Below, piece by piece: positions 22,423 through 42,336 of a stretch of DNA of 64,000 nt. The stretch comes from Prorocentrum cordatum (taxonomy: Eukaryota). A program made the translations under genes and the position numbers. The notes beneath the pieces were generated by a model. It saw nothing but the letters and a program-made list of their open reading frames with translations. It had not been told where the DNA came from and made no database searches. The stretch covers positions 1-64,000 of the forward strand of contig CAUYUJ010000310.1 in assembly GCA_963575745.1 (NCBI GenBank), in the 5' to 3' direction. Positions within the stretch are counted from its first letter, which is position 1. Each line of letters starts with the position of its first letter.

Positions 22423-22626
22423 GAGGAGGAGGAGGAGGAGGAGGAGGAGGAGGAGGAGGAGGAGGGAGGAGGAGGAGGAGGAGGAGAGGAGGAAGAGGAG
22501 GAGGACGAGGACGAGGAGGAGGAGGAGGAGGAGGAGGGAAGGAGGAGGAGGAGGAGGAGGAGGAGGAGGAGGAGGAGGAGGAGGAGGAGGAGGAGGAGGA
22601 GGAGGAGGAGGAGGAGGAGGAGGAGG
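22423..22626. repeat. (GGA)n microsatellite
   Basis: Direct inspection. Confidence 0.95.
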
Positions 22627-24700: not shown

Positions 24701-25385
24701 GGGGAGTCATCCCCCCCTCCTCCTCGTCCTCCACCTCCCTCTTCCGCTCCCGCTCCCTCCTCCTCCTGCCTCCTCTACCGGCCTTCTGTTTTGAAATGCG
24801 GAGGGAGGGAAGGAGGAAGGAGGAGGGAGGGGGGATGACGAGCAGGAGGGAAAAGGGTATGGGGAGGACATGGGGACGAACAGGACGGAGAAGAAGTGGG
24901 AACAATGAGGACGAGGGCGAAACGGGCAAGGAAAACGGGAAGGAATGAACGGAATTTGAAGGGCTTCGGATTCGCGGTGTAGACAGAGCTGATGATAGCA
25001 GCCTCGCTCGACGCTCTGCGCCACAATTCGAGCTCCACCCGTGATAAGGGCGACGGCCAGGCAGAAGGCGAGGAGAAACTCGAGCAGATTAGGCTGCACT
25101 GTTATGACCTCTTGGAAGCTGTTGGAGCATGGGGGGGGGGGTGGACGAGGAGCGGCGTCCTGAACCGCCACGCTTCGCTCCCGTATGCGCGCCCGAAAGG
25201 GAGACAGGCCGAACGGCCGCCGTAGCAGACAGTCGCCGCATGCGCGAGGCCGGGATTCATATTAGAAGTCCAAGTCCTGGGAGATCGGTTCCCATGGCGG
25301 TGGATCTGTGGATGAGAAGGCAACCTCCTGGTAGGTCTTTGTGAAAAGAAGGAACGTTTGTTAGGCTCGGTTAAAAGGGCCATAG

Positions 25386-25670
25386 AGTCGAAAACAAGCT
25401 GGTAAGCTTAGGTATGTGTTACGCTTTAAGCGTTGCCATATCCCAGGCTTTGGCTCATATCGCATGAGCAAGAGAGCAAGACGAAGCATGGGATCTGGAG
25501 TAAAGGATAGGATGGGCATCGTCAATGGAAAAGGTATTTTCCGATCTCTGATGCAAGTCGTGCGCCTCGGTGAGGCACAATCACATATTTGGCCGGGCCC
25601 GGCTTGAGCCAGGCACGGCAGCGGTACATGCTCGATTTATACCTCGCCTTTAACCTTCTCCGTTTAAGGT
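25386..25670 (-). repeat. Copia-A 3' LTR (285 bp)
   Basis: Matches 41472-41756; the only mismatch seen is 25668/41754. Confidence 0.95.
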
Positions 25671-25775
25671 CGGAGGGGGAGGAGACGAGCAGGCACCGCA
25701 CTTCTACATTACGCGGAAAAGACAGTGCTAAGCAGCAGCGGCTGCCTACAAGGCAAGGGCGCGCGAGTAGCCTCG

Positions 25776-28700: not shown

Positions 28701-31700
28701 TCCCTCTTTGTAGTGAAATTCACCCGTAGCAGTAGTCTTCGTACGGAGAGCCCTGTTCGTCTTGGCAACCGCAGTGGCCTGCGTGATTGCCTCCAGACTA
28801 ACCCTCCTGATTGTTTCCTCCCTTGAGTGATCTGATGATTCAGCGGACTGATCATGATCCAAGACAGGGAAATCGGGAAGCATAGCTGGTTGTCTGCCAT
28901 ACAGCGCATTGTACGGAGACACTTCATTGTAGAAGGTAAATGCGTTGCTGGCAAACAAGGCTTCATGTAAGAGACGAGTGAAATTGAGAGGAATATTTAA
29001 TCTATTCAATTCTTCTCCCATCACGTGTAAGAGGTGTCGCAGGATGCCGTTCCTAGCTTCGATAGTTGTGGCGTGTTGGCCACGCGCTCGGATACGAAGC
29101 TCTGTTCCCTTAGCCTTAAGGATGGCCTTTGCTGTATCATTATTCAGTGCTCCTTCCCCATCGGAGTATAAGATTTTAGCAGGGCCATGTTGCATCCAAG
29201 TCGTATGATAGGCATCGAGAACAGTATGCATGGCTTTATCAGGAATCTCTGTGCCAGCTGCCCAGCGAATACAACGGTCGATGATGTGAAAAACAATATG
29301 TTCCTGTTTGTAAAAGAAAAGATCACATTCGACTTCCTCGTTGAAACGTCCTGGCAGTGACACAGAAGGCATCACCGTGTTGCCTGGTTTGTCCCAGGCT
29401 CGACATTCTCTACACGAGTCACAAATGCCTTTGATCAGACTCAAACGGGTTTCACCCAGACCAACCTTGGTTGGAATCATCCGCATTTTTGGCTCCTTGG
29501 CATGAAACCATCTCAAGTGGAGTTTGCGGAGTTCTCGCTGCACTACAGCTGGGTCGAAGCTGCGCAGGTTTTGGAGGCTGAGCTGAACGTCGAAGCGAGT
29601 CCAATCAGGGAGCCTTGGCCTTGGCCTCGGCTCTGCTTGAGGCTGCGGCGGTGGTGGAGGATCTCCTCCCTCCATGCGTCCGCGCCTTGCTGCAACTTGT
29701 GGCAGTCTACGGTGATCGTCAGAGCTGCCAGCGCCAGTGTTGCCACCATTAGCCCCTTCGGCTCTGGTGATGTCATGGCTGCTGGCGCCTGCGGTTGGAT
29801 CGCCCTCGCCAGGCCGTGGCGGCCTAGGCGCGCGTATGCGCGCTCTCGCGGCCGGCGCCGCTTTTGCGGCTGGCGCCGCTTCTGCGGCTGGAGCCGCTTC
29901 CGCGGCTGGCGCCGCAGGAGCGGCTTGCCCCGCCGGGCGCGGCTGGCCAAAGTTATCTGGCAGCTTCCATTTTTCGGCGAATCTGCATTGGCCAGATATC
30001 TTGGTGTGGTGAGGATTGCTCTTCTGATATTCCTTCTTACAGCTTGGACAGTCCCAGTAATACGGTTCAACATCATACCACCGACACATCTTCGGATCCC
30101 TGCTGTGCTTTGGTGATTGCTTGTAGTTGTTGTCCACGCAGCCAGGGCACCCAAGACCGCCAGGTGGTGGTCGCCAGATTTCTCCGTTTGGGTGTCTCCG
30201 GATTGTTGGGTCGTCCAAGTCGTAGCCAGCACTGTTTGTTACGAACGCATAGCTGCGTTCACGATTCGCGAATGGATCGCGACCGTAAGCAAACAGGTCT
30301 TTGGCGATTTGCACCGCATCAACGATCAGTGACTGCATTCTGTAGGTATACTGTGCCGCCCTTGCTAGTTCTTTGTTACAAGCATTGGCGTGCACATGAT
30401 TACCTGGACAACGCTTGCCTCTGAAAGGTGCCAACAACTCTTCTTTGTTTGCCATCATCTGTGTTGGCTTGCGGATGTATTGTCCAAATGAATCTTTGAG
30501 ACCAGTCGTGCACTGATCAATAATCGTTTGGCAAGTGACCTTGCGTTGTGCCAGTTCCTTCCATGGCTGGATCTCATCCACCCACGTGCCCATTGGTTGT
30601 TCCCTGAGAAAGAAACGTCTTAGGTCGTCTTGTAATAGAGCGACTGTTCCACAGAACGTGATGTGAGGCAGGTCCTCTTTGTGGTGTTTAAGCCACGTAT
30701 CATGATTGACCTGTGCATTGAAATAGGAAGGAAGTCCAGTAGTTCTGCAGCTTGGCTGCAGAATCGTGATCTTGACAAAGCAAGTCTTGAGGTAGTGGAG
30801 GACTGCTCTTTGTACTTCCGAGTTTCCAAGGTCAACCATAGATATCTTGTCAAGGTTCCCGCCTGACGAGAGTCCCCTCTTGAAGGCTAATATGGATATA
30901 CCACCCTTGCCCCCACATAATTCAAGCATGTCCACTTGATTGTTTCTGCCGTAGCATAATGACTGGACCATCGAGAAGACATCAGCATGTGAGTCAGCGG
31001 GTTGCCCCGCCGGTAACATCATGAAGATGTCCTCTGATTCGCTGTCCGAGTCCGAGTCGTCAAGAGGAACGTCGTTGAAATATGTGGAGCAGTCAAGCCC
31101 TTTGAGGTCCTCTCCACAGTCGTCGTTACCGTCTTCCACTTTCTTCGGGACTTTCTTCGGTTTGATGCCGGCCTCTTTGTCAGCTTTCTGCTTTTCTTTC
31201 TGTTTTATCCTGGCATCAGTGGGCAACGCAGTTTCCGCGGAGAGATCCGCTGCGGAGGAATCCGCTGTTAAGTCAGGAAATGGCGGAATTTCAGGAAGGT
31301 TGTTGGTGGGTCGCGTTTGGCAACGCTCAATCGAAGGGGGAGGAGATCGATCGTCGTCGACGATCGTCACACGCTTTGGGCGTGGCCTTCGCGACTCACC
31401 GTCGCCATGAAGAACTGGAGCCGGAGGCTCCCAGTATAGCCGAGTACTGATGTTTGTAACCCCATCAGGTAATGGAGCTACATAATTGTACCCAGTTGGC
31501 TGATCCTGAATTCTAATATCTTGAACGATCTTATTCGTGTCCAGGTCGGTCGTGACTCTACGAACAACATGGTCCCATTGAGGGCCCTTTTGTGGGCATT
31601 GGACGTAGTGTCTGACCTTTTTGTCAACGCGAGTACACACGCTGAGGTGTACCGCACTCCGCTCATTCCTGATCATGTTGGCTTTATCGAGTTGATCAAG

Positions 31701-32375
31701 GAAGCGTGCAATAATGATAGCCAAAGTTTTATACCGAAACTCGGCACGTTGCTGATCTTGGCCATACCAATCCAAATCATGCTCCTTGTGTGAGCCACAA
31801 GTACATTTCCATAAGTTTATCGGTATATGAGGACAAGATGTAGCAACTTGTATATAAGAACCACTGGGATATTTACTGGATCGGTCAAACTTGATACCGA
31901 AATGACAGAGTCTCATTCGTATAATGCTTAGCTTCAAATCTTCGATAACATCTTTGATCGGACCCTGTTTCCAGAAATACCCGGGTGGCCCCAGGATAAC
32001 TATCTGCATTCTCAGAGCACGCGCTTTGATCAGGAGATTTTGTATACGTTGATAATGTGGTCCCGCCCTCTTTCCTGGAGTACGAACGTACCAATCAGAG
32101 GGTGTGGCCACCCACAACATATTGTAGTCTCCTGCCAACAAATTTCCCAAATACTGTGTTCCAGTTGAAGTCATTACCTCATTATGGGTAATCCGGTCGC
32201 ATATATATCCACGGGTTCGGAGTTCAGCGCAAGCTGTGCGAATATCTTCGATGACAAGACATTTTGAATGATATTTTTCCTCTCGGGCCTCAGCGCGGCC
32301 AACGTATGTCGCGAGGAGGCCGGTATTCGGCTTCTCTTCGCAAGCGAGCGCCGCCGGCGCGCCCGCCTGCCCCCG
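25776..32375 (-). CDS. pol: Copia-A Pol: MTase-like domains, Cys/His repeats, integrase (~28880-29530), RT (~26700-27480), RNase H (~25920-26460)
   Basis: LHLRWFH..CDSCREC (HHCC), CDLF/SDGE/IEARN (DDE), SRYVYKWK, RLVLRGF, LDINMAFL, HVDD, HSDSGY, SSYSAE, IDAES, ADGHTK. The frame stays open upstream of the ATG at 32174 up to the TGA at 32376-32378. Confidence 0.93.
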   Translation of the reverse strand, partial: RGQAGAPAALACEEKPNTGLLATYVGRAEAREEKYHSKCLVIEDIRTACAELRTRGYICDRITHNEVMTSTGTQYLGNLLAGDYNMLWVATPSDWYVRTPGKRAGPHYQRIQNLLIKARALRMQIVILGPPGYFWKQGPIKDVIEDLKLSIIRMRLCHFGIKFDRSSKYPSGSYIQVATSCPHIPINLWKCTCGSHKEHDLDWYGQDQQRAEFRYKTLAIIIARFLDQLDKANMIRNERSAVHLSVCTRVDKKVRHYVQCPQKGPQWDHVVRRVTTDLDTNKIVQDIRIQDQPTGYNYVAPLPDGVTNISTRLYWEPPAPVLHGDGESRRPRPKRVTIVDDDRSPPPSIERCQTRPTNNLPEIPPFPDLTADSSAADLSAETALPTDARIKQKEKQKADKEAGIKPKKVPKKVEDGNDDCGEDLKGLDCSTYFNDVPLDDSDSDSESEDIFMMLPAGQPADSHADVFSMVQSLCYGRNNQVDMLELCGGKGGISILAFKRGLSSGGNLDKISMVDLGNSEVQRAVLHYLKTCFVKITILQPSCRTTGLPSYFNAQVNHDTWLKHHKEDLPHITFCGTVALLQDDLRRFFLREQPMGTWVDEIQPWKELAQRKVTCQTIIDQCTTGLKDSFGQYIRKPTQMMANKEELLAPFRGKRCPGNHVHANACNKELARAAQYTYRMQSLIVDAVQIAKDLFAYGRDPFANRERSYAFVTNSAGYDLDDPTIRRHPNGEIWRPPPGGLGCPGCVDNNYKQSPKHSRDPKMCRWYDVEPYYWDCPSCKKEYQKSNPHHTKISGQCRFAEKWKLPDNFGQPRPAGQAAPAAPAAEAAPAAEAAPAAKAAPAARARIRAPRPPRPGEGDPTAGASSHDITRAEGANGGNTGAGSSDDHRRLPQVAARRGRMEGGDPPPPPQPQAEPRPRPRLPDWTRFDVQLSLQNLRSFDPAVVQRELRKLHLRWFHAKEPKMRMIPTKVGLGETRLSLIKGICDSCRECRAWDKPGNTVMPSVSLPGRFNEEVECDLFFYKQEHIVFHIIDRCIRWAAGTEIPDKAMHTVLDAYHTTWMQHGPAKILYSDGEGALNNDTAKAILKAKGTELRIRARGQHATTIEARNGILRHLLHVMGEELNRLNIPLNFTRLLHEALFASNAFTFYNEVSPYNALYGRQPAMLPDFPVLDHDQSAESSDHSREETIRRVSLEAITQATAVAKTNRALRTKTTATGEFHYKEGDLVDYHRPTTTKDDWGGWSGPYPVIRNEPDRGQVIVKVGSREVRVQYPDTRHTLYIEALMVREIGSDNTALRTVLAFIAGLPAGKPAMTFGYLPAKQGRLQMTAASRLSPKVHLALQYLIRNYFRIENVVAVRLAKSLTKLPAAPYADSCTLVHYDNDVTPGFHYYEADGTALNIYDITGSTHSRIIQRLKSRKSSAGFDRDLTKFEELADGPPPSESPPAAAPEEPPTDNDGRLPTIIEETEEDLDAFVLKSWYAELMDDRTLLEADTEEVMHAVPTYMTDTQCVLVSTTCEDVQGHLPERGHPPGYDMDTSYYVPLCSTDPDCKYDLDSDEHGKYIELCFTADMSKVVLSEQQHRLLDDSSVTTMRVYVSAASKRAVVVKEDDLLTKADIQANPVKVSKALYTELKTWLDNKCFQMTDLSKASNIMTSRYVYKWKFVKNEKGEMERTIRLRLVLRGFMDLEAFDVETFSGTARRSSQRLLASSAACNKAWIIASLDINMAFLKGLTYSELAAATGEKERVVCFTLPPGSAAVLRTLPGFESYDESKHCLRCLKPGTGTKDAPRAFSLKLRSITRSFGLQPTSYDEEFEMSSNLLTAKHVDDINMTGKEEAIDKYVKCVEDTFGKCKLNKHTYTNCAVRYNKTDDGSVTLDQDEYIKQLRPITHPELTGADPESKATKTISDMFVSLRGALAYALITQVWLMVYVVSLQRIQEPTNIQVRRLNAVTRKLQAGPKKIVYQAMTPTGEVDLHSDSGYRRLNGDEDDEVKGYGIRGANLLRRGHTQAGKPVVHLVDAYCKSHRLQVRSSYSAETLAAAHNLEDCYPTIVTLHELHSGPLTPTQLKNILEMGGLCIKVTLTIDAESVFKSLSSKDLKKPTECTLLGHISWIRQMMERGIVESVQWCDTRDMTADGHTKGSIDRALLPQVMAGQQSFKHELKKHTPHRAGRSSQDGPASRASGETRGQVRFNSEETRR
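30320..30935 (-). other. C5 cytosine methyltransferase-like domain in Copia-A Pol, between PR and INT
   Basis: ELCGGKGG (motif I-like), LQPSC (IV-like), REQP (VI-like), DQC..GL..RKPT (VIII-like); conserved in Copia-B. Confidence 0.7.
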
Positions 32376-35300
32376 TCAGCGGCGGTCGTGTGACCACGTT
32401 GCCGTCTGACTCGGGGGCATGCTGTTAGCGGATGGCTCCGCAGGAGTCGCTGGTGCGGCTACGCTCACGATCTCCACGCGGGTTGGCCCCGCAGAGTCCG
32501 ACGAGCCTCCGCCCGTGTAGCTTGGTGGTGGTGGCGGTGTCGCGGGTGGCCCCGCTTGGTTCTCAGGCGTCCATTTATTCACCGCCTCCTGGACTGCCCA
32601 GAATATCTTAGACTTCAGGGCATCCTTCATATGTGGCCAGGTCCCCTCGGGACACTGTTGGCCCTCCCACCAGCTGTTCAGCGTCCTGTCCACGATCAAA
32701 CGGGTCGTGTCTTCCAGGAGCTGCTTGTCGAGATACGGCTCGACAATGTACGTATCAGTCGTGGCGGTCATGGACTGTCCCGTCGCGGGTTGCCCCGCTG
32801 TGGTCTCGGCGGGTGGCCCCGCACTTACTCCGGCGGGTGGCCCCGCACTTACTCCGGCGGGTGGCCCCGCACTGACGGGGTCCTCTTCGTTCTCCGTCTC
32901 GGTGTAGCCATCTCGACTGCTGCGGATTGTGAAGGTGTTCGTGACCGTCTGGCTTTTAGCCCCGTCATACAAACCGCAGGGGATCGCGAGATGTCCCGAG
33001 GGAGTTTTCTTCGCCCTCAGGACCTTGGCACCCCTTCCCAGCTTCAGGGTGTAGTCACCGCTGGGGAAGATAACCTTCTGGTAGCCTGGCTTCAGCACGA
33101 TGATCGTGTCACGTGCTTCCATGGCTCCTAGGCCCCAGATGGCCGGGAGATTGGCACCCGAGCCTTCTGCGATGTTGGAGGCATACTCCTCGATACGGGG
33201 GCTTGCCTCATTGGCGTATTGCACCCCGATCTTGAAGTTGCCCATCTTCCGACATATCGCAGCACCCTCACCGACACCGTTGATGTAGAGGGTCTTGCTC
33301 AGGGTGCATATGGCAGGTCTGTGATTGTACCTGGCCATAATCTCCTGGAAGGTTCGCGCCGTATTGGCTCCAATGATGTTCACGTTGGAGCCAATGTCTA
33401 GCATGAACGAGATGCAGGGCATACCGTCTTCGTCAGGAAAGAATGTCCCATTTCGCGCTGCCAGAGCCATTGTACCATGGTCATCGGTGTGGTACGTAAT
33501 CTGTGAACCGAGTGTGCCTTTCAACAGGCGTTGTTCAAGCACCCATTGACTCATGGTTAACTCGGTGCACCACATCTGCTCATATTGGCGGCGCTCCTCC
33601 ACGGTAATTGGTTCCTGTTCGAGAACCCAATAATTCGCAGAGAGTGTGGACATCCATTCACCTCCTGGCGGCAGCGTGTCCGTGTCGTCACGTGCATAGG
33701 TCAGCCCCTCTGTATCGATCATGAATGTGGTGTGGAACTGGGCTGCCTCCGCGCTCTCAGCGCTTGCCCGGCTCCTAGCGCTGACCGGGCTTGCCACACG
33801 TGAGGTCCTGGATGATCCAGTTGGCCTTCGAGTCCCGCCTCCGCTCCTGCCACTCCGCCTGATGTTGGCCTCCATTGCCCTCAGGAAACCTGGATTTGGA
33901 GGCCCATTTGCGGGTGGCCCCGCTTTGGCGGCGGGAGCCGCTTCAGCGGGTGGCCCCGCAGCTGGGGGCTCCTGTGCTCGAAGCGTAGGCAGGATTGGCA
34001 TCTGGATGCCTTGCTCTGGCGCTGGCCAGGGGTATGCCTGTGCAGCTGGGGCACGTGCGGATGGCTCCGCCGATTGTGCGGCTCGAGCCTCTAGTGCCTC
34101 CACTGCTTCCCGTAGCCGACGCATTTCCCGGGCATCTGCCGCGTACCTCTCCTGCTGGCGCGCTTGTTCTGACTCAGCGTCGCGCTGTCCAGCATATGGG
34201 AAATGTGCTATAACTATGCCCGGCCCACGACATACAGCGCAGGGGGCCTCGTTCGGCGCACCTGGCCGCTGATTGCGGACGTGCTGCTGTGCAACACGAT
34301 CCCAGCATATATCGTGGAAGAAGTGCCCACACGCCAGTCTCCACACTATGGTGCCCATCTCGTAGGTGTCCATACAGATTGGGCACTGTGTGAAGTTGTA
34401 GTCTGAAATAACTGGAGCAGGCACGTCTGGGCGAGTCCGAGCTTGGCGCTCGAAAGTGGTTTCGCCCTCCCGATATGGCGTCGGTGGCGGTCGTCTATCT
34501 GTCCGTTCAGCGGGTGGCCCCGCGTCTGCGGGTGTCCCCGCTTGGGTCTCACGCTCGATCCTTCTCTGGATCGCGCGTTGTTGGCGCAGCCTGGCGTTGT
34601 CCCGAGCCTGCTGCCTAGATGCCAGTATCGCTTGCTGCGTGTTGTGCACGTCGCGGATGTAGTCTGGCATGCTGCCCATAGCGGCTGGCACCGCGAGACC
34701 AGCTGGCTGAACTACGGTCTCGGGGTCCGTCGGCGTGGGCATGTAGGCGTAGTGCGGCATAGACTGCGCATCGACCGCTCGTGTAAACTGCAAACGAAAC
34801 ATCTCATTGGCAAGATTCCGAGTGTATTCGTTCGCAGGTGGCCCCGCAATCATAGGAGTGTTATTCATCTGCGCGTAGTACTCCGGGTACATCGGCGCGT
34901 CCATGGCCTGTGCCTCTGCTGGTCCATGATTGTCCCATCCATATATTGGGTGTGATGCTATTCCTGGAATAAACACCTGTCGATATGGATTCGTGGGATC
35001 AGCATTTGGAGCATCTTCAGAAGTCCAGCTCCAGAGAGGCCGAAAGTCGCCATGATTCGTAACATCTATGTTGCGGTTCCGCAACAGGCTGGGCACTCTA
35101 TCAGCTTGTTGCTGCAGAAAGGTAGCCTGTGCTCTTAAGTTGGCTGCCCGACGTTCATAGTCTGACCCTTGCTGTCCGTCAGCGGGTGGCCCCGCGTGTG
35201 CGGGTGGCTCCGCAGGCGTTCGCTCGGCGGGTGTCCCCGCAGCCACTCCTCCTTCACTACCCCTCGGAGTGCCAAAGGGAGTGGTCGCCTGGAGTGCTGC

Positions 35301-38300
35301 TGCGAGCGCCGGATTCCCGCGAATCGCCTGGAGTCTTTGCCACAAGCTGTTCTCGCTCGTTTCAGACGGCGGAGTCCGAAACGGCGAGCCACCATCTGAA
35401 CCGCCCATAGGGACAAACCTCGCACCTCCAGCTTGCTGCGGAGGGCGTTGTGGTTGTGGTCCTAGGACGCCTGGTGGCCCAGCAGGAGTGCGCAGGTTCC
35501 TCTGCTGTGCGTCTTGGATACCTGTATGCACTGCCCACGGGTCAGCACGATATAGCTGATCGGTCAGTCCAGAGACGTCGGCTGGTGTCAAATAGCTGTT
35601 GAGGGCCTGGACCCATGTCTGCTGGTCCGGCCTCCAAGGAGATGCTACCGTTGCTACTGGTGTGACCACTTGTTGCCATGAACCGTCCGAGGTGTCTACC
35701 GCGGGTGTCCCCGCACCTGCGGGTGGCCCCGCTTCAGGCATGACCTCGTCCTCCTGGGCATTCATCATGAGGACTGTCTGTGTGTCGTACGGTCGTGGAG
35801 CAACATCTTGCTCGGTCATGATCAAATTGAATGGGCGACCGTCCGTCTTAGTCCAGCCCTTTAGGTACATGGCGTGATCTTCCATTACACCCAGAGTTCT
35901 GTCACACATTTTAAGTGGCAGGTAGTCATCGGTGCGAATCCTGTCCGCGGGTTGGCCCCGCCTCCGCGACTTGTCATAAGCCAGCGGATTGCTCCAGGCT
36001 TCGCCGACCCGATATTTCGCAATGCTCACAATCTGGAGGATATGATCGGGCGGTATACGTCCGTCGTGGCCCCGTGTCATGACTATGTCATTTGCTGATC
36101 TCCATAGGGAGAAGCCACTGGACAGCATCTTGTTGATGCTGCAGAATATGAGCACCTCCGAGTCAGGACGGATGCCCGATTGAATCCTCGGGTCGCCCGG
36201 GAGGTAGGGGCAGCCGTGCACAAATTGGCGCCCCCCCTTCCTTTTAGGGTTGTCCTGTGCGAGGCATGAAAGGCCATTAGCAAGGATGTCCTTGACATAC
36301 TCCCACTGTGTCCCGTGGATGAAATATACTGGGTCGTCTGGTTCTTTCATCCATGTTGTGATCGGCTTATAAAGCGACTCGGGACAGTGGATGCCTGGAC
36401 TGCTGTGGCCGTTCGTGGCTCTGATGAAGTACTGTGGCCTGCGTGCCTTTGGTCGAAACCTGGGAGGCAGCAGCATGCTGTCCTCAACGCACTTCATCTG
36501 GAGCCTGCCCTTCTGCATGCCGTGATGGTCAATCATCTCACAGCAGTTTAGCAGCACCCAATACACGTATGACGTGTGGGGCCTGCCCTTGATCAGCACC
36601 TCGTGCATTTCACGATAGCCTTTCCACTGATCATTTTCAGTCCAGTTTGTCAGCAGATCGTCAACAACAACCCAGCCATCGTATGGATCGAAAGTGCTGA
36701 TCTTTTCGAAGTGTCGGCTGAATCCGTCCTTCCAATATGGACTATGGCGTAGGGCTGTAGAGAACCATATTGACACCTTGGTCATTTGCCCTTCGCGCGG
36801 CAAAGTCGGATCCATGCCGAACCTCTCCATGACCTTCAGGAGCTCTGCTTTATGCTGCGCAACGCGTAGTGGCGGCCTGTCTCGCAACATATTTCCCACG
36901 GTTTGTTGTTCACGTTCCCAGTCGTTGCGGCACTCGAAGTTACGACGATCAGGGCAATTAATGACCTCGTATCGGTCCGTATCGTCTCGAGTGACTCGTG
37001 GGTTTATGGTGCGCTTCGGGCCTTTGCCTTCAATGCCTTGCCAGTATTCGATGGCTCCCAGAGGGATGTTCCTAAGAACAGACATTACTGGCTGCCCGCG
37101 TGCGGGTGGCCCCGCTAATGCAGCTGGCGGCGCTTTAACGGGTGGCCCAGCAGAGCCTGCGGCTGACGAGGCAGCTCCAGCGGATGACTCCGCGCCAGGG
37201 TTCGGGTGACCTTGGTCAGCAACTGCATCATCGGTTAGTTTCTGTCGGTCGCCAAATTCTTTGAGGACTCTGAAGCGTTCTTCTCTTGAGAGAGTGCCTT
37301 CTGCGGGTGTCCCCGCTGCTGCAGCTGGCGCCGCTTTAGCGGGTGGCCCCGCAGAGCCATTGTCCTCCTTAGCCTTGGCGGCCGCTTCTGCCCGCACCGA
37401 CCTCGTCCCAGCTTCGGGCTTCGGCTGTGCTTTCATTCGTGCCGAACCTGGTCGTGGTGCAAGGCGCGGCTGATGCAGAGTTGGAGTCCAGTCACCTCGG
37501 AAGGCTGCCTTAGGCTGATTGCGAGCTTCATCCTTGACATCGCCTTGGGTCGCCGGTGGCATCGGGGTCGATGGTCCAGCAAAAGCCTTCCTCCTCTCCG
37601 TCACGGACAGACCGGGAGGATCTACCGGCTCAGGGTCGTCCGTCTTGGCGATCCCTCTGGCCTTCGCCCGCCCCTGTGTGCCTTCGGGGCTCTTGGACGG
37701 GTGCCTTTTCGCAGGAGTCGGTGAAGACGAGGAGTCGGCTTCAGGTCTTGGAGGTGGTCTGCTGCCCTTGCCCGGTTGTGGACCAGGAGGGTCTCTAGGA
37801 GGGCCTTCTGGCTGGCCATGATCATGGATGACCTGCCTCATCTGGTCGATGTCGGCAGTACCTTTTATGGCCAGCTTGTACTTGCCATTTTCATGGCGGT
37901 GAATTACCCTCGTGCAAAACCACTTCTGCGCCGAAGAGCTGTAGTACCAGCAGGCGCATCCATCAGGGAATGGATTCTCTGAGCCGTCTTCCGCCGCCCA
38001 TTCTTCATTCAGTTCGGTGTGGTCAGTGCCGGCGGCGGACCCAGCAGCAGATGCAACAGCTATCCAATCGTCGTCCGCGGACCCAGCGGCTGGCGCCGCG
38101 TCTGCGGGTGACCCCGCTTCTTTGCTGGATCCTGCGGGTGACCCCGCCTCTTTACTGGATCCTGCGGGTGACCCCGCCTCTTTATGGAATCGGAATCGGC
38201 GGTTCCATTCCTTGAGGCGATGGTCATTGGGAAGCTGTACCCAATTTTCCCTGACGATGTTGGCCACCTCTTCGGTCATAGGGACGCGATCGGCTTCGGT

Positions 38301-38657
38301 GATGCGCTTTCCTCCTCCAGGGACCTCCTTGTTAGGATCATGGACGTTGCCAGCGTCATCTCCATGAGACCAATTCCACGGGGTCTCACCGTGATGAGGA
38401 CTCCTGGAGGGGCGGTCCATTGGACAACTGCGCATGTGACCTTTGAAGGGCTCGCACTGACATACTAGTTTCCTGTATGTCTTGCGATCGTTGATGATCT
38501 CCTGTTTCTTAGCCCTTTTGTCCCAAGCCTCTGGCGTTTTGGTCTTGCCACCCTTGGTGCGTATTATCACGCCAGTTTCGTCCCTTTTGGTGCAGTACTC
38601 CTTAGAATACCAGTGGCGGATCACGTCCATCGAATAGGGTACCAGTTGATGTACCAA
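32376..38657 (-). CDS. Copia-A cargo-protease ORF: small Tudor/SH3-like domain, Tpt1/KptA, RING-H2, aspartic protease
   Basis: 2093-aa open frame; protease MLDIGSN (DIG at 33390-33398) ... PAIWGL. Confidence 0.88.
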   Translation of the reverse strand: MVHQLVPYSMDVIRHWYSKEYCTKRDETGVIIRTKGGKTKTPEAWDKRAKKQEIINDRKTYRKLVCQCEPFKGHMRSCPMDRPSRSPHHGETPWNWSHGDDAGNVHDPNKEVPGGGKRITEADRVPMTEEVANIVRENWVQLPNDHRLKEWNRRFRFHKEAGSPAGSSKEAGSPAGSSKEAGSPADAAPAAGSADDDWIAVASAAGSAAGTDHTELNEEWAAEDGSENPFPDGCACWYYSSSAQKWFCTRVIHRHENGKYKLAIKGTADIDQMRQVIHDHGQPEGPPRDPPGPQPGKGSRPPPRPEADSSSSPTPAKRHPSKSPEGTQGRAKARGIAKTDDPEPVDPPGLSVTERRKAFAGPSTPMPPATQGDVKDEARNQPKAAFRGDWTPTLHQPRLAPRPGSARMKAQPKPEAGTRSVRAEAAAKAKEDNGSAGPPAKAAPAAAAGTPAEGTLSREERFRVLKEFGDRQKLTDDAVADQGHPNPGAESSAGAASSAAGSAGPPVKAPPAALAGPPARGQPVMSVLRNIPLGAIEYWQGIEGKGPKRTINPRVTRDDTDRYEVINCPDRRNFECRNDWEREQQTVGNMLRDRPPLRVAQHKAELLKVMERFGMDPTLPREGQMTKVSIWFSTALRHSPYWKDGFSRHFEKISTFDPYDGWVVVDDLLTNWTENDQWKGYREMHEVLIKGRPHTSYVYWVLLNCCEMIDHHGMQKGRLQMKCVEDSMLLPPRFRPKARRPQYFIRATNGHSSPGIHCPESLYKPITTWMKEPDDPVYFIHGTQWEYVKDILANGLSCLAQDNPKRKGGRQFVHGCPYLPGDPRIQSGIRPDSEVLIFCSINKMLSSGFSLWRSANDIVMTRGHDGRIPPDHILQIVSIAKYRVGEAWSNPLAYDKSRRRGQPADRIRTDDYLPLKMCDRTLGVMEDHAMYLKGWTKTDGRPFNLIMTEQDVAPRPYDTQTVLMMNAQEDEVMPEAGPPAGAGTPAVDTSDGSWQQVVTPVATVASPWRPDQQTWVQALNSYLTPADVSGLTDQLYRADPWAVHTGIQDAQQRNLRTPAGPPGVLGPQPQRPPQQAGGARFVPMGGSDGGSPFRTPPSETSENSLWQRLQAIRGNPALAAALQATTPFGTPRGSEGGVAAGTPAERTPAEPPAHAGPPADGQQGSDYERRAANLRAQATFLQQQADRVPSLLRNRNIDVTNHGDFRPLWSWTSEDAPNADPTNPYRQVFIPGIASHPIYGWDNHGPAEAQAMDAPMYPEYYAQMNNTPMIAGPPANEYTRNLANEMFRLQFTRAVDAQSMPHYAYMPTPTDPETVVQPAGLAVPAAMGSMPDYIRDVHNTQQAILASRQQARDNARLRQQRAIQRRIERETQAGTPADAGPPAERTDRRPPPTPYREGETTFERQARTRPDVPAPVISDYNFTQCPICMDTYEMGTIVWRLACGHFFHDICWDRVAQQHVRNQRPGAPNEAPCAVCRGPGIVIAHFPYAGQRDAESEQARQQERYAADAREMRRLREAVEALEARAAQSAEPSARAPAAQAYPWPAPEQGIQMPILPTLRAQEPPAAGPPAEAAPAAKAGPPANGPPNPGFLRAMEANIRRSGRSGGGTRRPTGSSRTSRVASPVSARSRASAESAEAAQFHTTFMIDTEGLTYARDDTDTLPPGGEWMSTLSANYWVLEQEPITVEERRQYEQMWCTELTMSQWVLEQRLLKGTLGSQITYHTDDHGTMALAARNGTFFPDEDGMPCISFMLDIGSNVNIIGANTARTFQEIMARYNHRPAICTLSKTLYINGVGEGAAICRKMGNFKIGVQYANEASPRIEEYASNIAEGSGANLPAIWGLGAMEARDTIIVLKPGYQKVIFPSGDYTLKLGRGAKVLRAKKTPSGHLAIPCGLYDGAKSQTVTNTFTIRSSRDGYTETENEEDPVSAGPPAGVSAGPPAGVSAGPPAETTAGQPATGQSMTATTDTYIVEPYLDKQLLEDTTRLIVDRTLNSWWEGQQCPEGTWPHMKDALKSKIFWAVQEAVNKWTPENQAGPPATPPPPPSYTGGGSSDSAGPTRVEIVSVAAPATPAEPSANSMPPSQTATWSHDRR
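34225..34386 (-). other. RING-H2 zinc finger
   Basis: CPIC-x14-CGHFFHDICW-x18-PCAVCR. Confidence 0.88.
36030..36780 (-). other. kptA: Tpt1/KptA NAD-dependent RNA 2'-phosphotransferase domain
   Basis: S..LRH, DGWV.V..LL, KGRLQ, IRATNGHS, IHGT..ILANGL, RQFVH, SGIR, SANDIVMTRGHDGRIPP, all in canonical order. Confidence 0.87.
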
Positions 38658-40300
38658 TCCGGCACATGCTGAGCGGATACTCCAACGGAGTGCTCAGTAC
38701 TGTATGGATAGCCCGATGCATCATGTGTAGGGCGTCTGGGAGCTGAACGGCTCCTCCTGCGGGCTGGCCCCGCTGACGCACTACCACGTTCCATTGGCCT
38801 TTGATCGTCATGCTCTGAGTCTCGGGGAGGCGACGGTTGTCCCTCTTGGCGTAGCGCATGTCCTCCGAGTCCTCTGAGCTGTCCTGGACCATGAATACGT
38901 GTTGATACGGGCTTCGGAAGTACCCGATGTCGTTTAACTGCTCCATCGTGAGGTCGTTAAGGTCTATTTGATCACAACCTTGCATAAATACATCCATAGA
39001 CCAAGCGGGTGGCCCCGCTGTTGCGGCTGGCGTCACTTCGGCGGGTGACCCCGCTAGAGCCTGGAGTGCTGTCAGCATCTGAGGTGCCGACATGTCCGAA
39101 TCCAGGTATGGACGCAGCCGTGCAGCCCCTGGGCGCGACAGCAGGTCGTTCATGGTTATCTGCTGATGTGCTGGCGCACTCAGGAGTCGGATTGCTTCAG
39201 CGACCTGTTCTTGGAGCATGTCCTTATAGTCATCTTCCGCACCTTCGGAGTCAGAGTACGCGGGATGGCCCCGCATTTCGTCATCAGCGTCTCCCGCCTC
39301 CGAACCAGCTCGCGAAAGGTCTGGCAGCAACGGCGTGCCAATCACCTGCGGTGCCAGCGCGGCGGTGAGCTCTTCCTCGGTCGCCGGGACGGTCTCAGCT
39401 TCGGAGACCTCGTCGCCGGCGGGTGGCCCCGCTGGAAGACCGAACCAAGCATTGAACGCGACCTCGTCGACCTCGTCCCAGCCGTGGAACTCGTCGAAGA
39501 GGGTCACTGCGTAGTCTTCCAGGGCTACGGTTGCTTCAGCGTAGCGGGCCATCACGTAATACGTGGAGGAGCCCGCAGCGGGAGCCGCTTCTGGATTGAC
39601 GTAAAACTCGTAGTCAATGTAGTCTATGTCATCCATAAAAGAATTTTGAGCCAAATGTACGGATCCCTTTCCTTTCCCCTTCGGGCATTGATCGCGCAAA
39701 TGATCTGTGCTACCGCATGTATGACACTTCATAGTATTGCCAGAAGCGTCCCTAGGGTTGCCCCTCCGCCCTTTTCCCTTACCGGAGGTCCGCCTGTGAC
39801 CCCGACCTTTGCCTCCGATAAGAACTTCTTCAAAGGCTATATCAGTTAAGGACGTGAGGAAAGCAGTAATACCCCTACCATGCATACGGCGTCTGCGACC
39901 CCCTTTGCCACGACCCTTTCCATATCGTTTGAAATGTCGGCGTACTGCACGTCTCACTTTTCTGACTGGTTTCTTCATAAAGCGCCTCCAACGGCGTTTT
40001 GATTTGCGATAGGCCATAAAAGCGGCTTCCGCTCTTTGTTGTTCAGAAAGGTGAGTGTCATCCGCTGGATAGTCATTACCAGCAGAGACTATGCCATTGT
40101 GCTCATCGTCAGATGAGGTATCTGCGTCAGTGCCAGATTCAAACGGTGAGGGTGGCTGAGACCCTTGAGCGGATGACTCCGCTTGGCCCCAGAGGGTTGT
40201 GCCCGAGGGCGGGCTTGCAGTGTAGGCGGCGCCTGGCGAGTAGTTCGACCAGGCGTTCGCCTCAGCTGCCTCTGCCGATGCCTGGCCAGTCTGCCCTAAG
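38602..40300 (-). CDS. gag: Copia-A Gag C-terminal part with basic region and CCHC zinc knuckle (39685-39727)
   Basis: CHTCGSTDHLRDQC preceded by K/R/G-rich segment; in the +1 frame relative to the upstream gag ORF. Confidence 0.8.
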
Positions 40301-41605
40301 AAGGGCAGTGGCCTCGTTGGGCATATCGGCTGGGTCAGCCCAGGGATTTGGCTCGCCAGGACCAGCGGGTGACCCCGCAGTCGTGGCGTAGACACCTGCA
40401 TGTGAGTGGTGCCCTGTGAAGATACCCGCTATGTTGCCAGGAGAGCGCTCGGCAACATGTCCGTAGTTCCTCATCCTGGTCAGCAGCCTGTCATAGTCTG
40501 CTTGTGTTCGGGGCATCTGATGATTAAAGGGCTCCAGCAGGTGTTGGGCTCGTGACGCGCCAACGCCTAACGCTCTGAAGAGAATCAGCGTTAGGATCTG
40601 AAAGTTGGGGATGACAAATCCAACAGAGTTAGCCTCGTCACGGGCCATCTCGAATCGAGCTAACACTGAGTCGATTCGCTCGCCCCTTTCGACGCGAAAG
40701 TCGATAAGGGCAGTGCCAGAGTTGAGCTGGCGCTCATCTTCCAGATTTTCAAATTTGGTGCTCAGTAAGTACAGTATATATGTTACTGCATCCGTTGGCT
40801 GTCCATTGACAGTTACACCATAATTGATGATCTGGGAGGGGACCTGCATGGCGATACGACGAGCAAGACCTTGAAGGCCTCGTTGTAGTGCTGCAGCTTG
40901 TTGTGGTGGTGTCATATTGCCGCTCGTTACGTTTAACCATGCATGTACTTCGCGAACATATTCGCGAAAAGGCGTAGTACCGGCAGGGTCCCATGAGGGG
41001 CCAGTAGTACGCGTGTCGTCCATCCCCTGCCGCATGTATCCCACAGCACATCCCATTATTACCCACAGAATGCCGAAGATAGTTATCTTAATCCAGTGCA
41101 TGTGCATTTCGGCTTCGGTGATTGGTTTAGGCTGTGGTTTGTCAGGCTCTGGCGTAGTAGCCGTGAGGCGCCTGACTGGCACGGGATGCAGGTGGCCCCG
41201 CTGCGGGTAGCCCCGCAGGGTGACCACGTTCTCGATCGAGTTGCCGATTGGCATCTGGTGGAAGTCGGGAGTGAAGTGGCGCAGTGAAGTAGGAGAGAGC
41301 GTCTCGAGTTCGCGGGTTGCCCCGCTAGCTCGATCGCGGACTGGCTCCGCTCCTCGCAGAGCCGGCGCAACATGGTATTCCACCGTAGTAGTAGTCCACC
41401 AAGTTGTGCCGTGGATTACAGGAATCAGAGCGAGAGCCAGCCACACGAGAGTGTAGCCAGCTCCGCTACCAAGTCGAAAACAAGCTGGTAAGCTTAGGTA
41501 TGTGTTACGCTTTAAGCGTTGCCATATCCCAGGCTTTGGCTCATATCGCATGAGCAAGAGAGCAAGACGAAGCATGGGATCTGGAGTAAAGGATAGGATG
41601 GGCAT
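40262..41605 (-). CDS. gag: Copia-A Gag capsid-like N-terminal part with hydrophobic N-terminal extension
   Basis: GPSWDP..FREYVREVHAW, ALQRGLQGLAR, LIDFRVERGERIDSVLARFE; first in-frame ATG (41605) lies inside the 5' LTR. Confidence 0.75.
   Translation of the reverse strand: MPILSFTPDPMLRLALLLMRYEPKPGIWQRLKRNTYLSLPACFRLGSGAGYTLVWLALALIPVIHGTTWWTTTTVEYHVAPALRGAEPVRDRASGATRELETLSPTSLRHFTPDFHQMPIGNSIENVVTLRGYPQRGHLHPVPVRRLTATTPEPDKPQPKPITEAEMHMHWIKITIFGILWVIMGCAVGYMRQGMDDTRTTGPSWDPAGTTPFREYVREVHAWLNVTSGNMTPPQQAAALQRGLQGLARRIAMQVPSQIINYGVTVNGQPTDAVTYILYLLSTKFENLEDERQLNSGTALIDFRVERGERIDSVLARFEMARDEANSVGFVIPNFQILTLILFRALGVGASRAQHLLEPFNHQMPRTQADYDRLLTRMRNYGHVAERSPGNIAGIFTGHHSHAGVYATTAGSPAGPGEPNPWADPADMPNEATALLRADWPGIGRGS
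41461..41471 (-). other. Primer-binding site TGGTAGCGGAG, complementary to the initiator tRNA-Met 3' end
   Basis: Directly abuts the 5' LTR; TGGTAGC is the iMet-type PBS start as in Ty1. Confidence 0.85.
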
Positions 41606-41756
41606 CGTCAATGGAAAAGGTATTTTCCGATCTCTGATGCAAGTCGTGCGCCTCGGTGAGGCACAATCACATATTTGGCCGGGCCCGGCTTGAGCCAGGC
41701 ACGGCAGCGGTACATGCTCGATTTATACCTCGCCTTTAACCTTCTCCGTTTAAAGT
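41472..41756 (-). repeat. Copia-A 5' LTR (285 bp)
   Basis: Matches 25386-25670. Confidence 0.95.
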
Positions 41757-42336
41757 CATAGGCCATATTCAGCCAGACTAGACCCAGGAGAAAAGGGACA
41801 TTAGACGGGACTAAGCGGAAGTAAGCGGTACAATGCCGGATTAGGCCAGTGTTCGACCACAGATATACCAATCCCGATGCAGAATCAAACCTCCCAAGAA
41901 TTGCACTGGAGAGCGAAAGTCCCGGCCTCGGATCATCCGCTAGTCGAGCCGACATCAAAAGCGTCATACACAAGCTTACGCGCGGGCGCGCGGCGCGGGG
42001 GGCAAAGCAAGGGCCGCCGCACCACTCTACGTGCATTCTGGTCGATCGGGAGTTCCGATCCGAGCACGTCACTCAATGGCCTAACGTTACGCACGGGAGG
42101 AGGTCGGCGGCCCGCACAGGAGCGGGGGTGGGGGCGAGGGGTGCCCTTCTTCCGAGAAGGCAGGAGGCTTCATCTAGATGGCCTGGAGGCTTCAGAGGAA
42201 GGGCTCTCAGAGCGCGGGAGGGCATCTAAAAAGACCCCCCGCCCTACCTTTTCAAAAGGCCGGCGGATGGGCTCAGAGGGCTCTGGGGAAGGGCTCTCGT
42301 CAGAACGCTGGAGGGCTGCTAATAAAGAAAACGCTG

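What the first reader, a model, noticed from the sequence alone, without database searches (positions are those of the whole stretch)
36030..36780. LTR retrotransposon carrying an apparently intact Tpt1/KptA (NAD+-dependent RNA 2'-phosphotransferase, ART fold) in its polyprotein
Seen: a full Tpt1 motif series sits in frame between the Gag knuckle and the protease of a young, complete Copia. It includes candidates for all four Arg-His-Arg-Arg catalytic residues (LRH at 36744-36749, KGR, RQFVH) and the HGT NAD-binding motif. Known: Tpt1 removes 2'-phosphates left by tRNA ligation, and several Tpt1 enzymes ADP-ribosylate 5'-phosphate RNA/DNA ends. Inference: because it lies upstream of the UGA, it would be made more abundantly than RT/IN and could be packaged. 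It might cap or protect genomic RNA or cDNA ends, or process the tRNA primer. I do not know of a characterised Tpt1-bearing LTR element.
Basis: partly seen in the sequence, partly recalled or inferred. Interest (0 to 1): 0.9.

Follow-up and report, generated by a model that had tools for sequence, protein, structure and literature searches.

The report
Tpt1 enzyme domain inside dinoflagellate Copia
A giant Copia-type jumping gene of a dinoflagellate carries a well-preserved copy of the RNA 2'-phosphotransferase Tpt1 inside its Gag-protease protein, an accessory enzyme I could not find reported for any retrotransposon.

Summary
Window 36015-36851 (minus strand) encodes a Tpt1/KptA domain: Pfam PF01885 E 1.6e-15, 58 bits against a cut-off of 26. 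The AlphaFold model has pLDDT 86, and its 22 significant PDB matches are all Tpt1/KptA/TRPT1. The Arg-His-Arg-Arg tetrad and HGT are present.

The domain lies in a 16.4-kb Copia element (25386-41762). The element has 291-bp LTRs differing at 1 base, a 5-bp target duplication, a tRNA-type primer site and an RVT_2 reverse transcriptase. An in-frame UGA follows the protease.

The domain is not private to this copy:
- A marine metagenome contig 46% identical in the domain reads Gag, knuckle, Tpt1, RING and protease as one 2653-codon frame.
- The transposon-type Tpt1s form one clade with support 100.
- dN/dS in the domain is 0.13, against 0.84 in the neighbouring linker.

One correction: this copy has three frame breaks between Gag and the Tpt1 frame.

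The enzymatic role (2'-phosphate removal or 5'-phosphate ADP-ribosylation on replication intermediates) is inferred. I rate it a new variant of a known kind.

The parts
25386..41762 (-). Whole Copia-type LTR retrotransposon (16,377 bp)
   Evidence: Direct repeat pair D13 spaced 16,086 bp; boundaries and flanks read
41472..41762 (-). 5' LTR (291 bp)
   Evidence: 1 mismatch to the 3' LTR
25386..25676 (-). 3' LTR (291 bp)
41763..41767 (-). Target-site duplication CTATG, 5' side
   Evidence: read directly
25381..25385 (-). Target-site duplication CTATG, 3' side
   Evidence: read directly
41457..41471 (-). Primer-binding site TGGTAGCGGAGCTGG directly after the 5' LTR
   Evidence: the identical 15-mer sits at L001 1014-1028
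40298..41479 (-). Gag N-terminal part (56% identical to L001 Gag)
   Evidence: tblastn; no Pfam family
39679..39729 (-). CCHC zinc knuckle, in a different frame from Tpt1 in this copy
   Evidence: PF00098, 18.5 bits, below its cut-off of 20.8; conserved in L001
38621..40303 (-). Stretch holding three frame breaks (near 40300, 38837, 38630) relative to the family's single ORF
   Evidence: frames 2, 3, 2, 1. tables 4 and 7: other copies differ there by 1-base and 4-base indels
36015..36851 (-). Tpt1/KptA domain (two lobes; confidently folded residues 1-279 of the 300-residue query)
   Evidence: PF01885 at 36069-36680; AF2 pLDDT 86; Foldseek top 22 all Tpt1 family
36744..36749 (-). Arg649-His650 of the catalytic tetrad (LRH)
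   Evidence: tetrad defined in PMC6333775
36504..36512 (-). Lys728-Gly-Arg730: third tetrad residue plus the ancillary Lys
36309..36317 (-). His-Gly-Thr NAD-lobe motif
36216..36230 (-). RQFVH: fourth tetrad Arg822 and conserved His
34227..34388 (-). RING finger in the same frame, downstream of Tpt1
   Evidence: PF13923 and PF13639 above their cut-offs; also in P0007/L001
33387..33398 (-). Protease-like D-I-G-S motif
   Evidence: Read directly; conserved in L001; no Pfam match
32376..32378 (-). In-frame TGA between the Gag-Tpt1-RING-PR frame and the IN-RT-RNase H frame
   Evidence: a second element has TGA at 63285-63287 with similar context
28476..29378 (-). Integrase-like region (HHCC and D,D35E readable)
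   Evidence: Read directly. Atlas: 21 of the 30 nearest named clusters belong to the set carrying PF00665 rve alone, best score 0.94, and further listed clusters carry rve with other families. No Pfam or PDB sequence match
26685..27464 (-). Copia-type reverse transcriptase
   Evidence: PF07727 RVT_2, 42.3 bits against a cut-off of 31.6

Best explanation
This is a member of a lineage of very large Ty1/Copia retrotransposons of dinoflagellates. The nearest named proteins are Prorocentrum cordatum gene models, and relatives occur in marine metagenomes.

The lineage acquired a eukaryote-type TRPT1/Tpt1 domain once. It keeps that domain, under purifying selection, inside the Gag-(Tpt1)-(RING)-protease reading frame that is translated before a leaky UGA.

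Shown:
- the family assignment, the predicted fold and the full Arg-His-Arg-Arg tetrad plus HGT;
- the position inside LTRs;
- the same layout as one uninterrupted ORF in a relative 46% identical in the domain;
- a single clade of transposon-type Tpt1s;
- dN/dS of 0.13.

Inferred:
- The domain is an active NAD+-dependent enzyme, produced at Gag/protease level and released by the element's protease.
- It acts on phosphate groups of the element's own nucleic acids in the particle. One option is erasing internal or terminal RNA 2'-phosphates on the genomic RNA or tRNA primer. By my recall (no call) such marks block reverse transcriptase. The other option is adding ADP-ribose to 5'-phosphate ends of RNA/cDNA intermediates.

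This particular copy is young but carries three frame breaks upstream of the Tpt1 frame, so it probably cannot make the full Gag-Tpt1 fusion itself.
For: Family and fold:
- PF01885 E 1.6e-15, 58.1 bits against a cut-off of 26. PHROG 5470 'RNA 2'-phosphotransferase' E 2.7e-6.
- PDB sequence hits are to tRNA 2'-phosphotransferase 1 chains 7yw3 (E 2e-13) and 7yw2 (E 3e-12), named human and mouse.
- AF2 model on a 58-row alignment: pLDDT 86.1, pTM 0.80.
- Foldseek: all 22 matches with E<=0.001 are Tpt1/KptA/TRPT1. The best is 7yw2, E 7e-14, TM 0.82 normalised to the target.

Catalytic residues:
- All 19 columns conserved in at least 90% of the 58-row alignment carry the consensus residue in the window protein.
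- Among transposon-type rows: Arg-His in 6 of 6 rows that cover the site, K-x-R in 9 of 9, the fourth Arg in 4 of 5.

Element:
- LTRs, 5-bp duplication, PBS and RVT_2.
- Relative L001 has one 2653-codon ORF Gag-knuckle-Tpt1-RING-PR and the identical PBS.
- P0007 has the same domain order.
- Conserved in-frame UGA in two elements of the window.

Selection and spread:
- L001 against L002: omega 0.128 over 245 Tpt1 codons, 0.838 over 137 linker codons, 0.42 over 85 pre-domain codons.
- 12 transposon-type rows form one clade, SH-aLRT 100, apart from 86 other Tpt1s.
- Many near-identical contigs in three DNA runs: 40126, 658 and 3028 laid.
Against: - No activity was or can be measured here.
- The domain sits on a long stem branch (2.25) and has clade-specific changes: Q to N in the RAxQGHS motif and two helical insertions in the RNA-binding lobe. 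Substrate or chemistry may therefore differ from known Tpt1s.
- NCBIfam's bacterial equivalog model scores only 22.4 bits against a cut-off of 239.
- Some transposon-type sequences lack tetrad or HGT residues: P0165 and P0019 have Ile for the fourth Arg, and P0011 and P0042 lack HGT. These may be decayed copies.
- This copy has three frame breaks between Gag and Tpt1.
- The dN/dS figure rests on one pair of metagenome contigs and on my own NG86 script.
- Protease and RNase H have no profile match, so proteolytic release is assumed.
Confidence: 0.6

Rival explanations
1. The domain is an active Tpt1 used for conflict with the host rather than for replication chemistry. It might repair RNAs cut by host ribonucleases and rejoined by a Trl1-type ligase, or modify host RNA or DNA ends, perhaps together with the neighbouring RING domain.
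For: Phage and a few RNA-virus polyproteins carry KptA, and this is read as RNA repair in conflicts (PMC9503650, passages seen). A Trl1-like CPD/kinase-Tpt1 fusion protein (P0147) is among the hits, so 2'-phosphate-generating ligation exists somewhere in the organisms sampled by the library. Tpt1 and RING stay together in both lineages seen.
Against: No ligase, 2H or Macro partner domain was found in the element. Nothing here distinguishes host targets from self targets.
Confidence: 0.17
2. The domain is a pseudo-enzyme: a Tpt1 fold kept as an RNA- or NAD-binding or structural module of Gag, without catalysis.
For: Long stem branch, N-lobe insertions and the Q-to-N change. Purifying selection alone does not prove catalysis.
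Against: The tetrad, the ancillary Lys, HGT and the other near-invariant family columns are all retained in the window copy and in the intact relatives L001, L002, P0007 and P0164. That is not expected if only binding were selected.
Confidence: 0.12
3. The domain is a passenger: a host TRPT1 fragment transduced by one element and carried along without benefit, or an assembly or annotation chimera.
For: Retrotransposons do capture host sequence. P. cordatum gene models containing this domain are chimeric with unrelated genes.
Against: The same layout occurs in relatives 43-54% identical from independent metagenome contigs. There is one clade with at least three sub-lineages, omega is 0.13, the ORF from Gag to PR is continuous in L001, and thousands of contigs in independent runs cover the region.
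Confidence: 0.03

Closest known systems
Cellular TRPT1/Tpt1/KptA (e.g. mouse and human TRPT1, PDB 7yw2 and 7yw3; Clostridium thermocellum Tpt1)
   Same: Same Pfam family and the same predicted two-lobe fold. It shares the Arg-His-Arg-Arg tetrad, K-x-R, HGT and the eukaryote-style PGDxRIxSGxR stretch.
   Different: It is embedded in a retrotransposon polyprotein rather than a free-standing cellular protein. It has two insertions in the N-lobe, Asn for Gln in RAxQGHS, and 24-25% identity to the solved structures over the structural alignment. It lies on a separate long branch.
KptA domains embedded in polyproteins of a few positive-strand RNA viruses, and KptA of jumbo phages, sawfly nucleopolyhedroviruses and Bodo saltans virus (Iyer et al. 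2022, PMC9503650)
   Same: A Tpt1/KptA domain carried by a selfish replicon, in some cases inside a polyprotein (passages read).
   Different: Those are viruses. That paper has 0 occurrences of 'retrotransposon', 'retroelement' or 'dinoflagellate'. Here the carrier is an LTR retrotransposon and the domain sits in the Gag-PR part.
Other accessory enzyme domains captured by retrotransposons: DNMT in Symbiodinium LINE/DIRS and Klebsormidium Gypsy (PMC5890265); AlkB-type m6A demethylase in orchid Ty3/Gypsy (PMC9289625, search listing only)
   Same: A host-derived nucleic-acid-modifying enzyme fixed in a retrotransposon ORF and kept under purifying selection. The DNMT cases report Ka/Ks below 0.2.
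   Different: Different enzyme class (NAD+-dependent phosphotransferase/ADP-ribosyltransferase) and a different carrier (Copia). That paper states that Symbiodinium Copia elements lack a DNMT domain.

Membership tests
Tpt1/KptA/TRPT1 (Pfam PF01885, PTS_2-RNA) | Profile match above the curated cut-off | tested here: met
   58.1 bits against 26, E 1.6e-15, profile positions 28-177 of 177. The relative P0007 matches positions 5-177.
Tpt1/KptA/TRPT1 | Two-lobe fold: winged-helix RNA lobe plus ART-like NAD+ lobe | tested here: met
   Predicted model pLDDT 86.1. The 22 Foldseek matches with E<=0.001 are all Tpt1 family, with about 250-268 alignment columns spanning both lobes. This is a prediction, not a solved structure.
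Tpt1/KptA/TRPT1 | Arg-His-Arg-Arg catalytic tetrad (PMC6333775) | tested here: met
   R649, H650, R730 and R822 of the 2105-residue frame align with the tetrad columns of cellular Tpt1s. Definition read.
Tpt1/KptA/TRPT1 | NAD+-lobe motifs (HGT; conserved His after the fourth Arg; SGxR) | tested here: met
   H179, G180, T181, R208, H212, S225, G226 and R228 of the query are among the columns conserved in at least 90% of the 58-row alignment.
Tpt1/KptA/TRPT1 | NAD+-dependent 2'-phosphate transfer or 5'-phosphate ADP-ribosylation activity | not testable with these tools
   Needs biochemistry.
Bacterial KptA equivalog (NCBIfam NF002014) | Score above the equivalog cut-off | tested here: not met
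   22.4 bits against 239. It is not a bacterial-type orthologue, and the best sequence and fold matches are mammalian TRPT1.
Ty1/Copia LTR retrotransposon | Long terminal repeats with a 5-bp target-site duplication | tested here: met
   291-bp LTRs with 1 mismatch, CTATG on both flanks.
Ty1/Copia LTR retrotransposon | tRNA primer-binding site next to the 5' LTR | tested here: met
   A TGG-starting 15-mer directly after the LTR, identical in L001. The matching tRNA was not identified, and no tRNA gene lies in the window.
Ty1/Copia LTR retrotransposon | Polypurine tract upstream of the 3' LTR | tested here: not met
   The sense strand just upstream of the 3' LTR is pyrimidine-rich, and a near-identical pyrimidine tract is at the same place in L001. 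The first roughly 25 bases of the LTR are purine-rich instead.
Ty1/Copia LTR retrotransposon | Copia-type RT (RVT_2) with integrase upstream of RT | tested here: met
   RVT_2 scores 42.3 bits against 31.6. The integrase-like region with readable D,D35E lies upstream of RT. 21 of the 30 nearest Atlas clusters belong to the set carrying rve alone, and further listed clusters carry rve with other families. Pfam and PDB sequence searches found no integrase.
Ty1/Copia LTR retrotransposon | Retropepsin protease (D-T/S-G) | tested here: inconclusive
   Only a conserved D-I-G-S motif is present. There is no profile match.

The most novel reading that the evidence does not exclude
A retrotransposon makes its own NAD+-dependent nucleic-acid-end enzyme at Gag stoichiometry and packages it. 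In the particle it either erases 2'-phosphate marks from the genomic RNA or tRNA primer, marks that by my recall block reverse transcriptase, or caps 5'-phosphate ends of RNA/cDNA intermediates with ADP-ribose. The RNA it would act on is studded with about 30 conserved GNNA-loop hairpins. This would be the first NAD+-consuming, ADP-ribose-based step in any retroelement life cycle, and a natural biological context for the long-puzzling non-splicing activities of Tpt1/TRPT1.
Probability: 0.3. Interest if true: 0.8.

Novelty: new variant of a known kind. Interest (0 to 1): 0.62.

Why it matters
Tpt1/KptA is widespread, but its role outside fungal and plant tRNA splicing is unresolved (PMC6333775, passages). 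A selfish element that has kept the enzyme under strong constraint through several diverged lineages offers a new and tractable context for asking what 2'-phosphate removal or 5'-phosphate ADP-ribosylation is good for.

For transposon biology it adds a new class of captured accessory enzyme, alongside chromodomains, DNMTs and AlkB. It also shows that dinoflagellate Copia elements are unusually large multi-domain replicons: Tpt1, RING, a further conserved unknown domain, a conserved UGA and dispersed hairpins. [quoted passage not shown]

Tried and rejected
- **Own genome:** not held, so no genome-wide copy survey was possible.
- **Expression:** no RNA holder was listed for the stretch. One run guessed to be RNA (X20) gave 6 contigs, over 40011-41571 and 30985-31169 only. 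I take no evidence on expression from this.
- **Names for cellular-type hits:** The listing of cluster members gave a name for only 1 of the 10 proteins asked (P0141, P. cordatum). The donor lineage of the domain could therefore not be labelled.
- **Tree:** the careful search did not finish in 288 s and the quick tree was used. Of 162 candidate sequences, 97 plus the window were kept, namely those covering query positions 145-265. The rest, mostly short fragments, were dropped.
- **First metagenome scan:** A 4-row alignment worked.
- **Viral contigs:** 22 pattern matches, 0 relatives.
- **Protease, integrase, RNase H:** no Pfam match when scanned as separate pieces. No PDB sequence match for the integrase piece.
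- **DNMT idea:** I suspected from memory that the conserved domain between PR and IN (30096-31058) is a DNA methyltransferase. This is not supported. There was no Pfam or PHROG match. The Atlas offered a methylase cluster only at 0.77. The single-sequence AF2 model was unusable, pLDDT 40. hhalign against the DNMT-bearing P0107 gave probability 0.1.
- **Other searches:** Rfam and tRNA scans of the window found nothing. Earlier findings of this scan returned nothing in three look-ups. A literature search for the four hairpin words found 0 papers.
Full report
**What is at the coordinates**

On the minus strand, a stop-free frame of 2105 codons runs from 38693 to 32376. Pfam places PTS_2-RNA (PF01885) at residues 672-875, i.e. 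window 36069-36680. E is 1.6e-15 and the score 58.1 bits against a gathering cut-off of 26. PHROGs gives 'RNA 2'-phosphotransferase' at E 2.7e-6.

Against PDB sequences the best matches are tRNA 2'-phosphotransferase 1 chains 7yw3 (E 2e-13) and 7yw2 (E 3e-12), titled human and mouse. They share the stretch LPGDPxIxSGxR. NCBIfam's bacterial equivalog is far below its cut-off, 22.4 against 239 bits.

- LRH at 36752-36744
- the catalytic KGR at 36512-36504 (a second, irrelevant KGR lies at 36590-36582)
- HGT at 36317-36309
- RQFVH at 36230-36216

**Fold and catalytic residues**

An AlphaFold2 model was built on a 58-row alignment. It has mean pLDDT 86.1 and pTM 0.80, and only the last 21 residues are disordered. 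In Foldseek against the PDB, all 22 matches with E<=0.001 are Tpt1/KptA/TRPT1. The best is mouse TRPT1 7yw2, with E 7.3e-14 and TM 0.82 normalised to the target. The next matches are unrelated, at E 0.03 or worse.

The tetrad that defines the active site is Arg18, His19, Arg68 and Arg121 in C. thermocellum Tpt1, with an ancillary Lys66 (PMC6333775, passages read). In a 17-row alignment (9 transposon-type, 7 cellular-type, and P0107) it aligns with R649, H650, R730 and R822, plus K728.

All 19 columns conserved in at least 90% of the 58-row alignment carry the consensus residue in the window protein.

The transposon-type sequences differ from cellular ones in three ways. They have two insertions in the N-terminal (RNA) lobe, which the model folds as helices. 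They have Asn for Gln in RAxQGHS.

**The carrier is an LTR retrotransposon of Copia type**

- **LTRs:** two 291-bp direct repeats (25386-25676 and 41472-41762) differ at one position.
- **Flanks, read in the sense of the coding strand:** the element is flanked by CTATG on both sides. The 5' LTR is followed at once by TGGTAGCGGAGCTGG, a tRNA-type primer-binding site.
- **RT:** the downstream frame (32375-25776, 2199 codons) has RVT_2 at 42.3 bits against 31.6.
- **Integrase:** upstream of RT lies a region with readable HHCC and D,D35E motifs. Of its 30 nearest named Atlas clusters, 21 belong to the set carrying rve alone and further listed clusters carry rve with other families. Pfam and PDB sequence searches see no integrase.
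- **Protease and RNase H:** neither has a profile match. The protease is inferred from a D-I-G-S motif conserved in the relative.
- **UGA:** the Tpt1 frame and the IN/RT frame are the same reading frame, separated by one TGA followed by CGG GGG CAG G. A second, divergent element at the window's end also has a single in-frame TGA at the same junction, followed by AGA TGG CAG G. That argues for programmed read-through.

**This copy is not fully intact**

A JGI metagenome contig (L001, 8780 bp) is 46% identical in the Tpt1 domain. It reads Gag, CCHC knuckle, Tpt1, RING and the protease motif as one frame of 2653 codons, open at the contig end.

Aligned to that ORF, the window element changes frame three times upstream of Tpt1:

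| Stretch | Frame |
|---|---|
| 41479-40298 | 2 |
| 40143-39334 | 3 |
| 38728-38624 | 2 |
| from 38621 | 1 |

I laid Logan contigs of four public runs on the element. At each break, other copies differ by an indel:
- one base fewer at 40300/40303;
- four extra bases behind 38837;
- loose ends at 38637 which, read in the sense strand, encode the continuous peptide also seen in the P. cordatum model P0005.

Contigs with the window's version are also present in the same runs. The knuckle is therefore not in frame with Tpt1 here, although Tpt1, RING and protease are.

**Not a private capture**

- **Named hits:** protein searches found P. cordatum gene models 81-100% identical (chimeric with unrelated genes) and a 1627-residue ENA protein (P0007) with Tpt1, RING and the protease motif in the same order.
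- **Exhaustive search:** it gave 703 proteins at E<=0.001. Many of the best are short fragments 45-60% identical. Cellular-type Tpt1s follow at about 30-38%.
- **Other relatives:** a divergent lineage is also in P. cordatum (P0141, CAK0808503.1). Two EukProt entries labelled Pyramimonas sp. are 45-50% identical.
- **Metagenome contigs:** L002 is intact. L003 has the two lobes in different frames.
- **Tree:** in a quick maximum-likelihood tree of 98 rows, the 12 transposon-type rows form one clade (SH-aLRT 100) on a long stem (2.25), with at least three sub-lineages. The other 86 rows are separate. P0107, a Tpt1-DNMT fusion, falls among those and is an independent case.
- **Viral contigs:** no relative was found.

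**Selection**

For L001 against L002 (467 aligned codons, Nei-Gojobori in my own script):

| Region | Codons | dN | dS | omega |
|---|---|---|---|---|
| Tpt1 domain | 245 | 0.116 | 0.90 | 0.128 |
| Conserved stretch just upstream | 85 | 0.201 | 0.479 | 0.42 |
| Linker further upstream | 137 | 0.246 | 0.294 | 0.84 |

This is one pair only. Some transposon-type sequences have lost catalytic residues, as expected for decaying copies.

**How it most likely works**

Shown: a catalytically complete Tpt1-family domain is an integral, selected part of the Gag-to-protease frame of a Copia lineage, upstream of a conserved UGA.

Inferred: it is translated with Gag and protease, in excess over IN/RT, is cut out by the protease, and is packaged.

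Known chemistry of the family comes from abstracts and passages seen. It comprises NAD+-dependent removal of internal RNA 2'-phosphates, removal of terminal 2'/3'-phosphates by some members, and ADP-ribosylation of 5'-phosphate RNA/DNA ends.

For a retroelement the most economical uses are two. One is cleaning 2'-phosphate marks from the template RNA or tRNA primer. That such marks hinder reverse transcriptase is my recollection, not a result here. The other is capping 5'-phosphate ends of intermediates. I cannot tell these apart.

Rivals are a host-conflict or RNA-repair role, a non-catalytic binding module, and a passenger. The last is largely excluded.

**Comparison with what is known**

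- Iyer et al. 2022 (PMC9503650) report KptA in jumbo phages, sawfly nucleopolyhedroviruses, Bodo saltans virus and a few RNA-virus polyproteins. The text has no occurrence of retrotransposon, retroelement or dinoflagellate.
- De Mendoza et al. 2018 (PMC5890265) describe DNMTs in Symbiodinium LINE and DIRS elements and state that Symbiodinium Copia lack DNMT. Tpt1 and phosphotransferase do not occur in the text.
- A 2019 opinion article on retrotransposon accessory domains has no ADP-ribosyl or phosphotransferase term.
- Full-text searches combining retrotransposon with Tpt1/KptA/PTS_2-RNA listed no relevant paper among the 20 shown of 78. A search combining dinoflagellate with Tpt1/TRPT1 listed none among the 10 shown of 53.
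- bioRxiv supplements and the unsearched part of PubMed Central could still hold a mention.

**Verdict**

The domain is a real Tpt1-family member by every testable criterion. The carrier is a Copia-type element, with one unmet criterion: no polypurine tract. The combination is, as far as I could search, undescribed. I file it as a new variant of a known kind (accessory-enzyme capture by a retrotransposon), interest about 0.6.

Noticed in passing
window 25815-41325 (33 sites), e.g. 32809-32870, 35182-35240, 38104-38177; L001 599-8507 (17 sites); L003 (5 sites): On the element's sense strand a 14-base unit recurs: a 5-bp G/C stem closed by a G-N-N-A tetraloop. Pattern hits number 39 in the window against 4.07 expected, and 33 of them lie inside the element. 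29 of the 33 have a perfect stem. 27 of the 33 lie in codon phase 0 and encode A-G-x-P-A in linkers between domains. The relative 46% identical in the Tpt1 domain keeps the unit with G.U or A-U at the third pair, which pairs only as sense-strand RNA, and with the same Ala/Gly codons. Function unknown; it could be a packaging or protein-binding signal, protease sites, or both. No paper holds these words.
   Followed up: partly
window: joints 35195 to 32857, 39022 to 32855, 39434 to 33970, 32800 to 34507, 32801 to 40362, 35220 to 40362: Contigs of public runs join one hairpin unit to another, giving internally deleted or rearranged copies. The units seem to act as recombination or template-switch points (tables 5 and 5c).
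   Followed up: no
window 25677-25697 (minus strand); L001 about 700-722: Where a polypurine tract is expected, just upstream of the 3' LTR, the sense strand is a pyrimidine tract. It is nearly identical in the divergent relative L001. The first roughly 25 bases of the LTR are purine-rich instead. Plus-strand priming in this family may be unusual.
   Followed up: partly
window 32376-32378 and 63285-63287 (minus strand): A single in-frame TGA lies between the protease frame and the IN/RT frame in two divergent elements. The downstream codons are similar (CGG GGG CAG G and AGA TGG CAG G), suggesting programmed UGA read-through.
   Followed up: partly
window 30096-31058, 61000-61917, 54568-55290 (minus strand): A conserved domain of unknown function lies between protease and integrase in three different Copia-like elements of the window. 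Invariant features include ELxGxG, P-x-C-R and F-x-x-E-x-P. From memory it recalled a C5 DNA methyltransferase, but Pfam, PHROGs, hhalign against a DNMT and a single-sequence fold gave no support.
   Followed up: partly
window 34227-34388 (minus strand); P0007 residues 894-947: A RING finger (PF13923 and PF13639 above their cut-offs) is kept downstream of Tpt1 in both lineages. This is a second accessory domain of the Gag-PR frame.
   Followed up: no
window 56000-64000 and 52834-56127 (minus strand): Two further Copia-like elements lie in the window. One is related to the main element but has several frame breaks and runs off the window end before its Gag/Tpt1 part. The other has a 1097-codon frame.
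   Followed up: no
protein P0107 (ENA contig, 1513 aa): A protein with an N-terminal Tpt1 domain (123 bits) and a C5 DNA methylase domain (108 bits). In the tree its Tpt1 falls among the cellular-type sequences, so it is an independent Tpt1 fusion, possibly another mobile element.
   Followed up: partly
protein P0147 (1700 aa): A fusion of SPRY, kinase-like and tRNA-ligase CPD domains with a C-terminal Tpt1. It looks like a Trl1-type healing module joined to Tpt1 in an unnamed organism.
   Followed up: no
window 22403-24560, 42407-46190, 47394-47930: Dense short-period arrays flank the element: period 9 at 22.4-24.6 kb, period 14-15 (units ending GGGCGAAAC) at 42.4-46.2 kb, and period 12 at 47.4-47.9 kb.
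   Followed up: no
P. cordatum gene models P0005, P0163, P0168: Public gene models join the N-lobe of Tpt1 directly to the protease region, or to unrelated genes. These are either internally deleted element copies or mis-spliced predictions.
   Followed up: no
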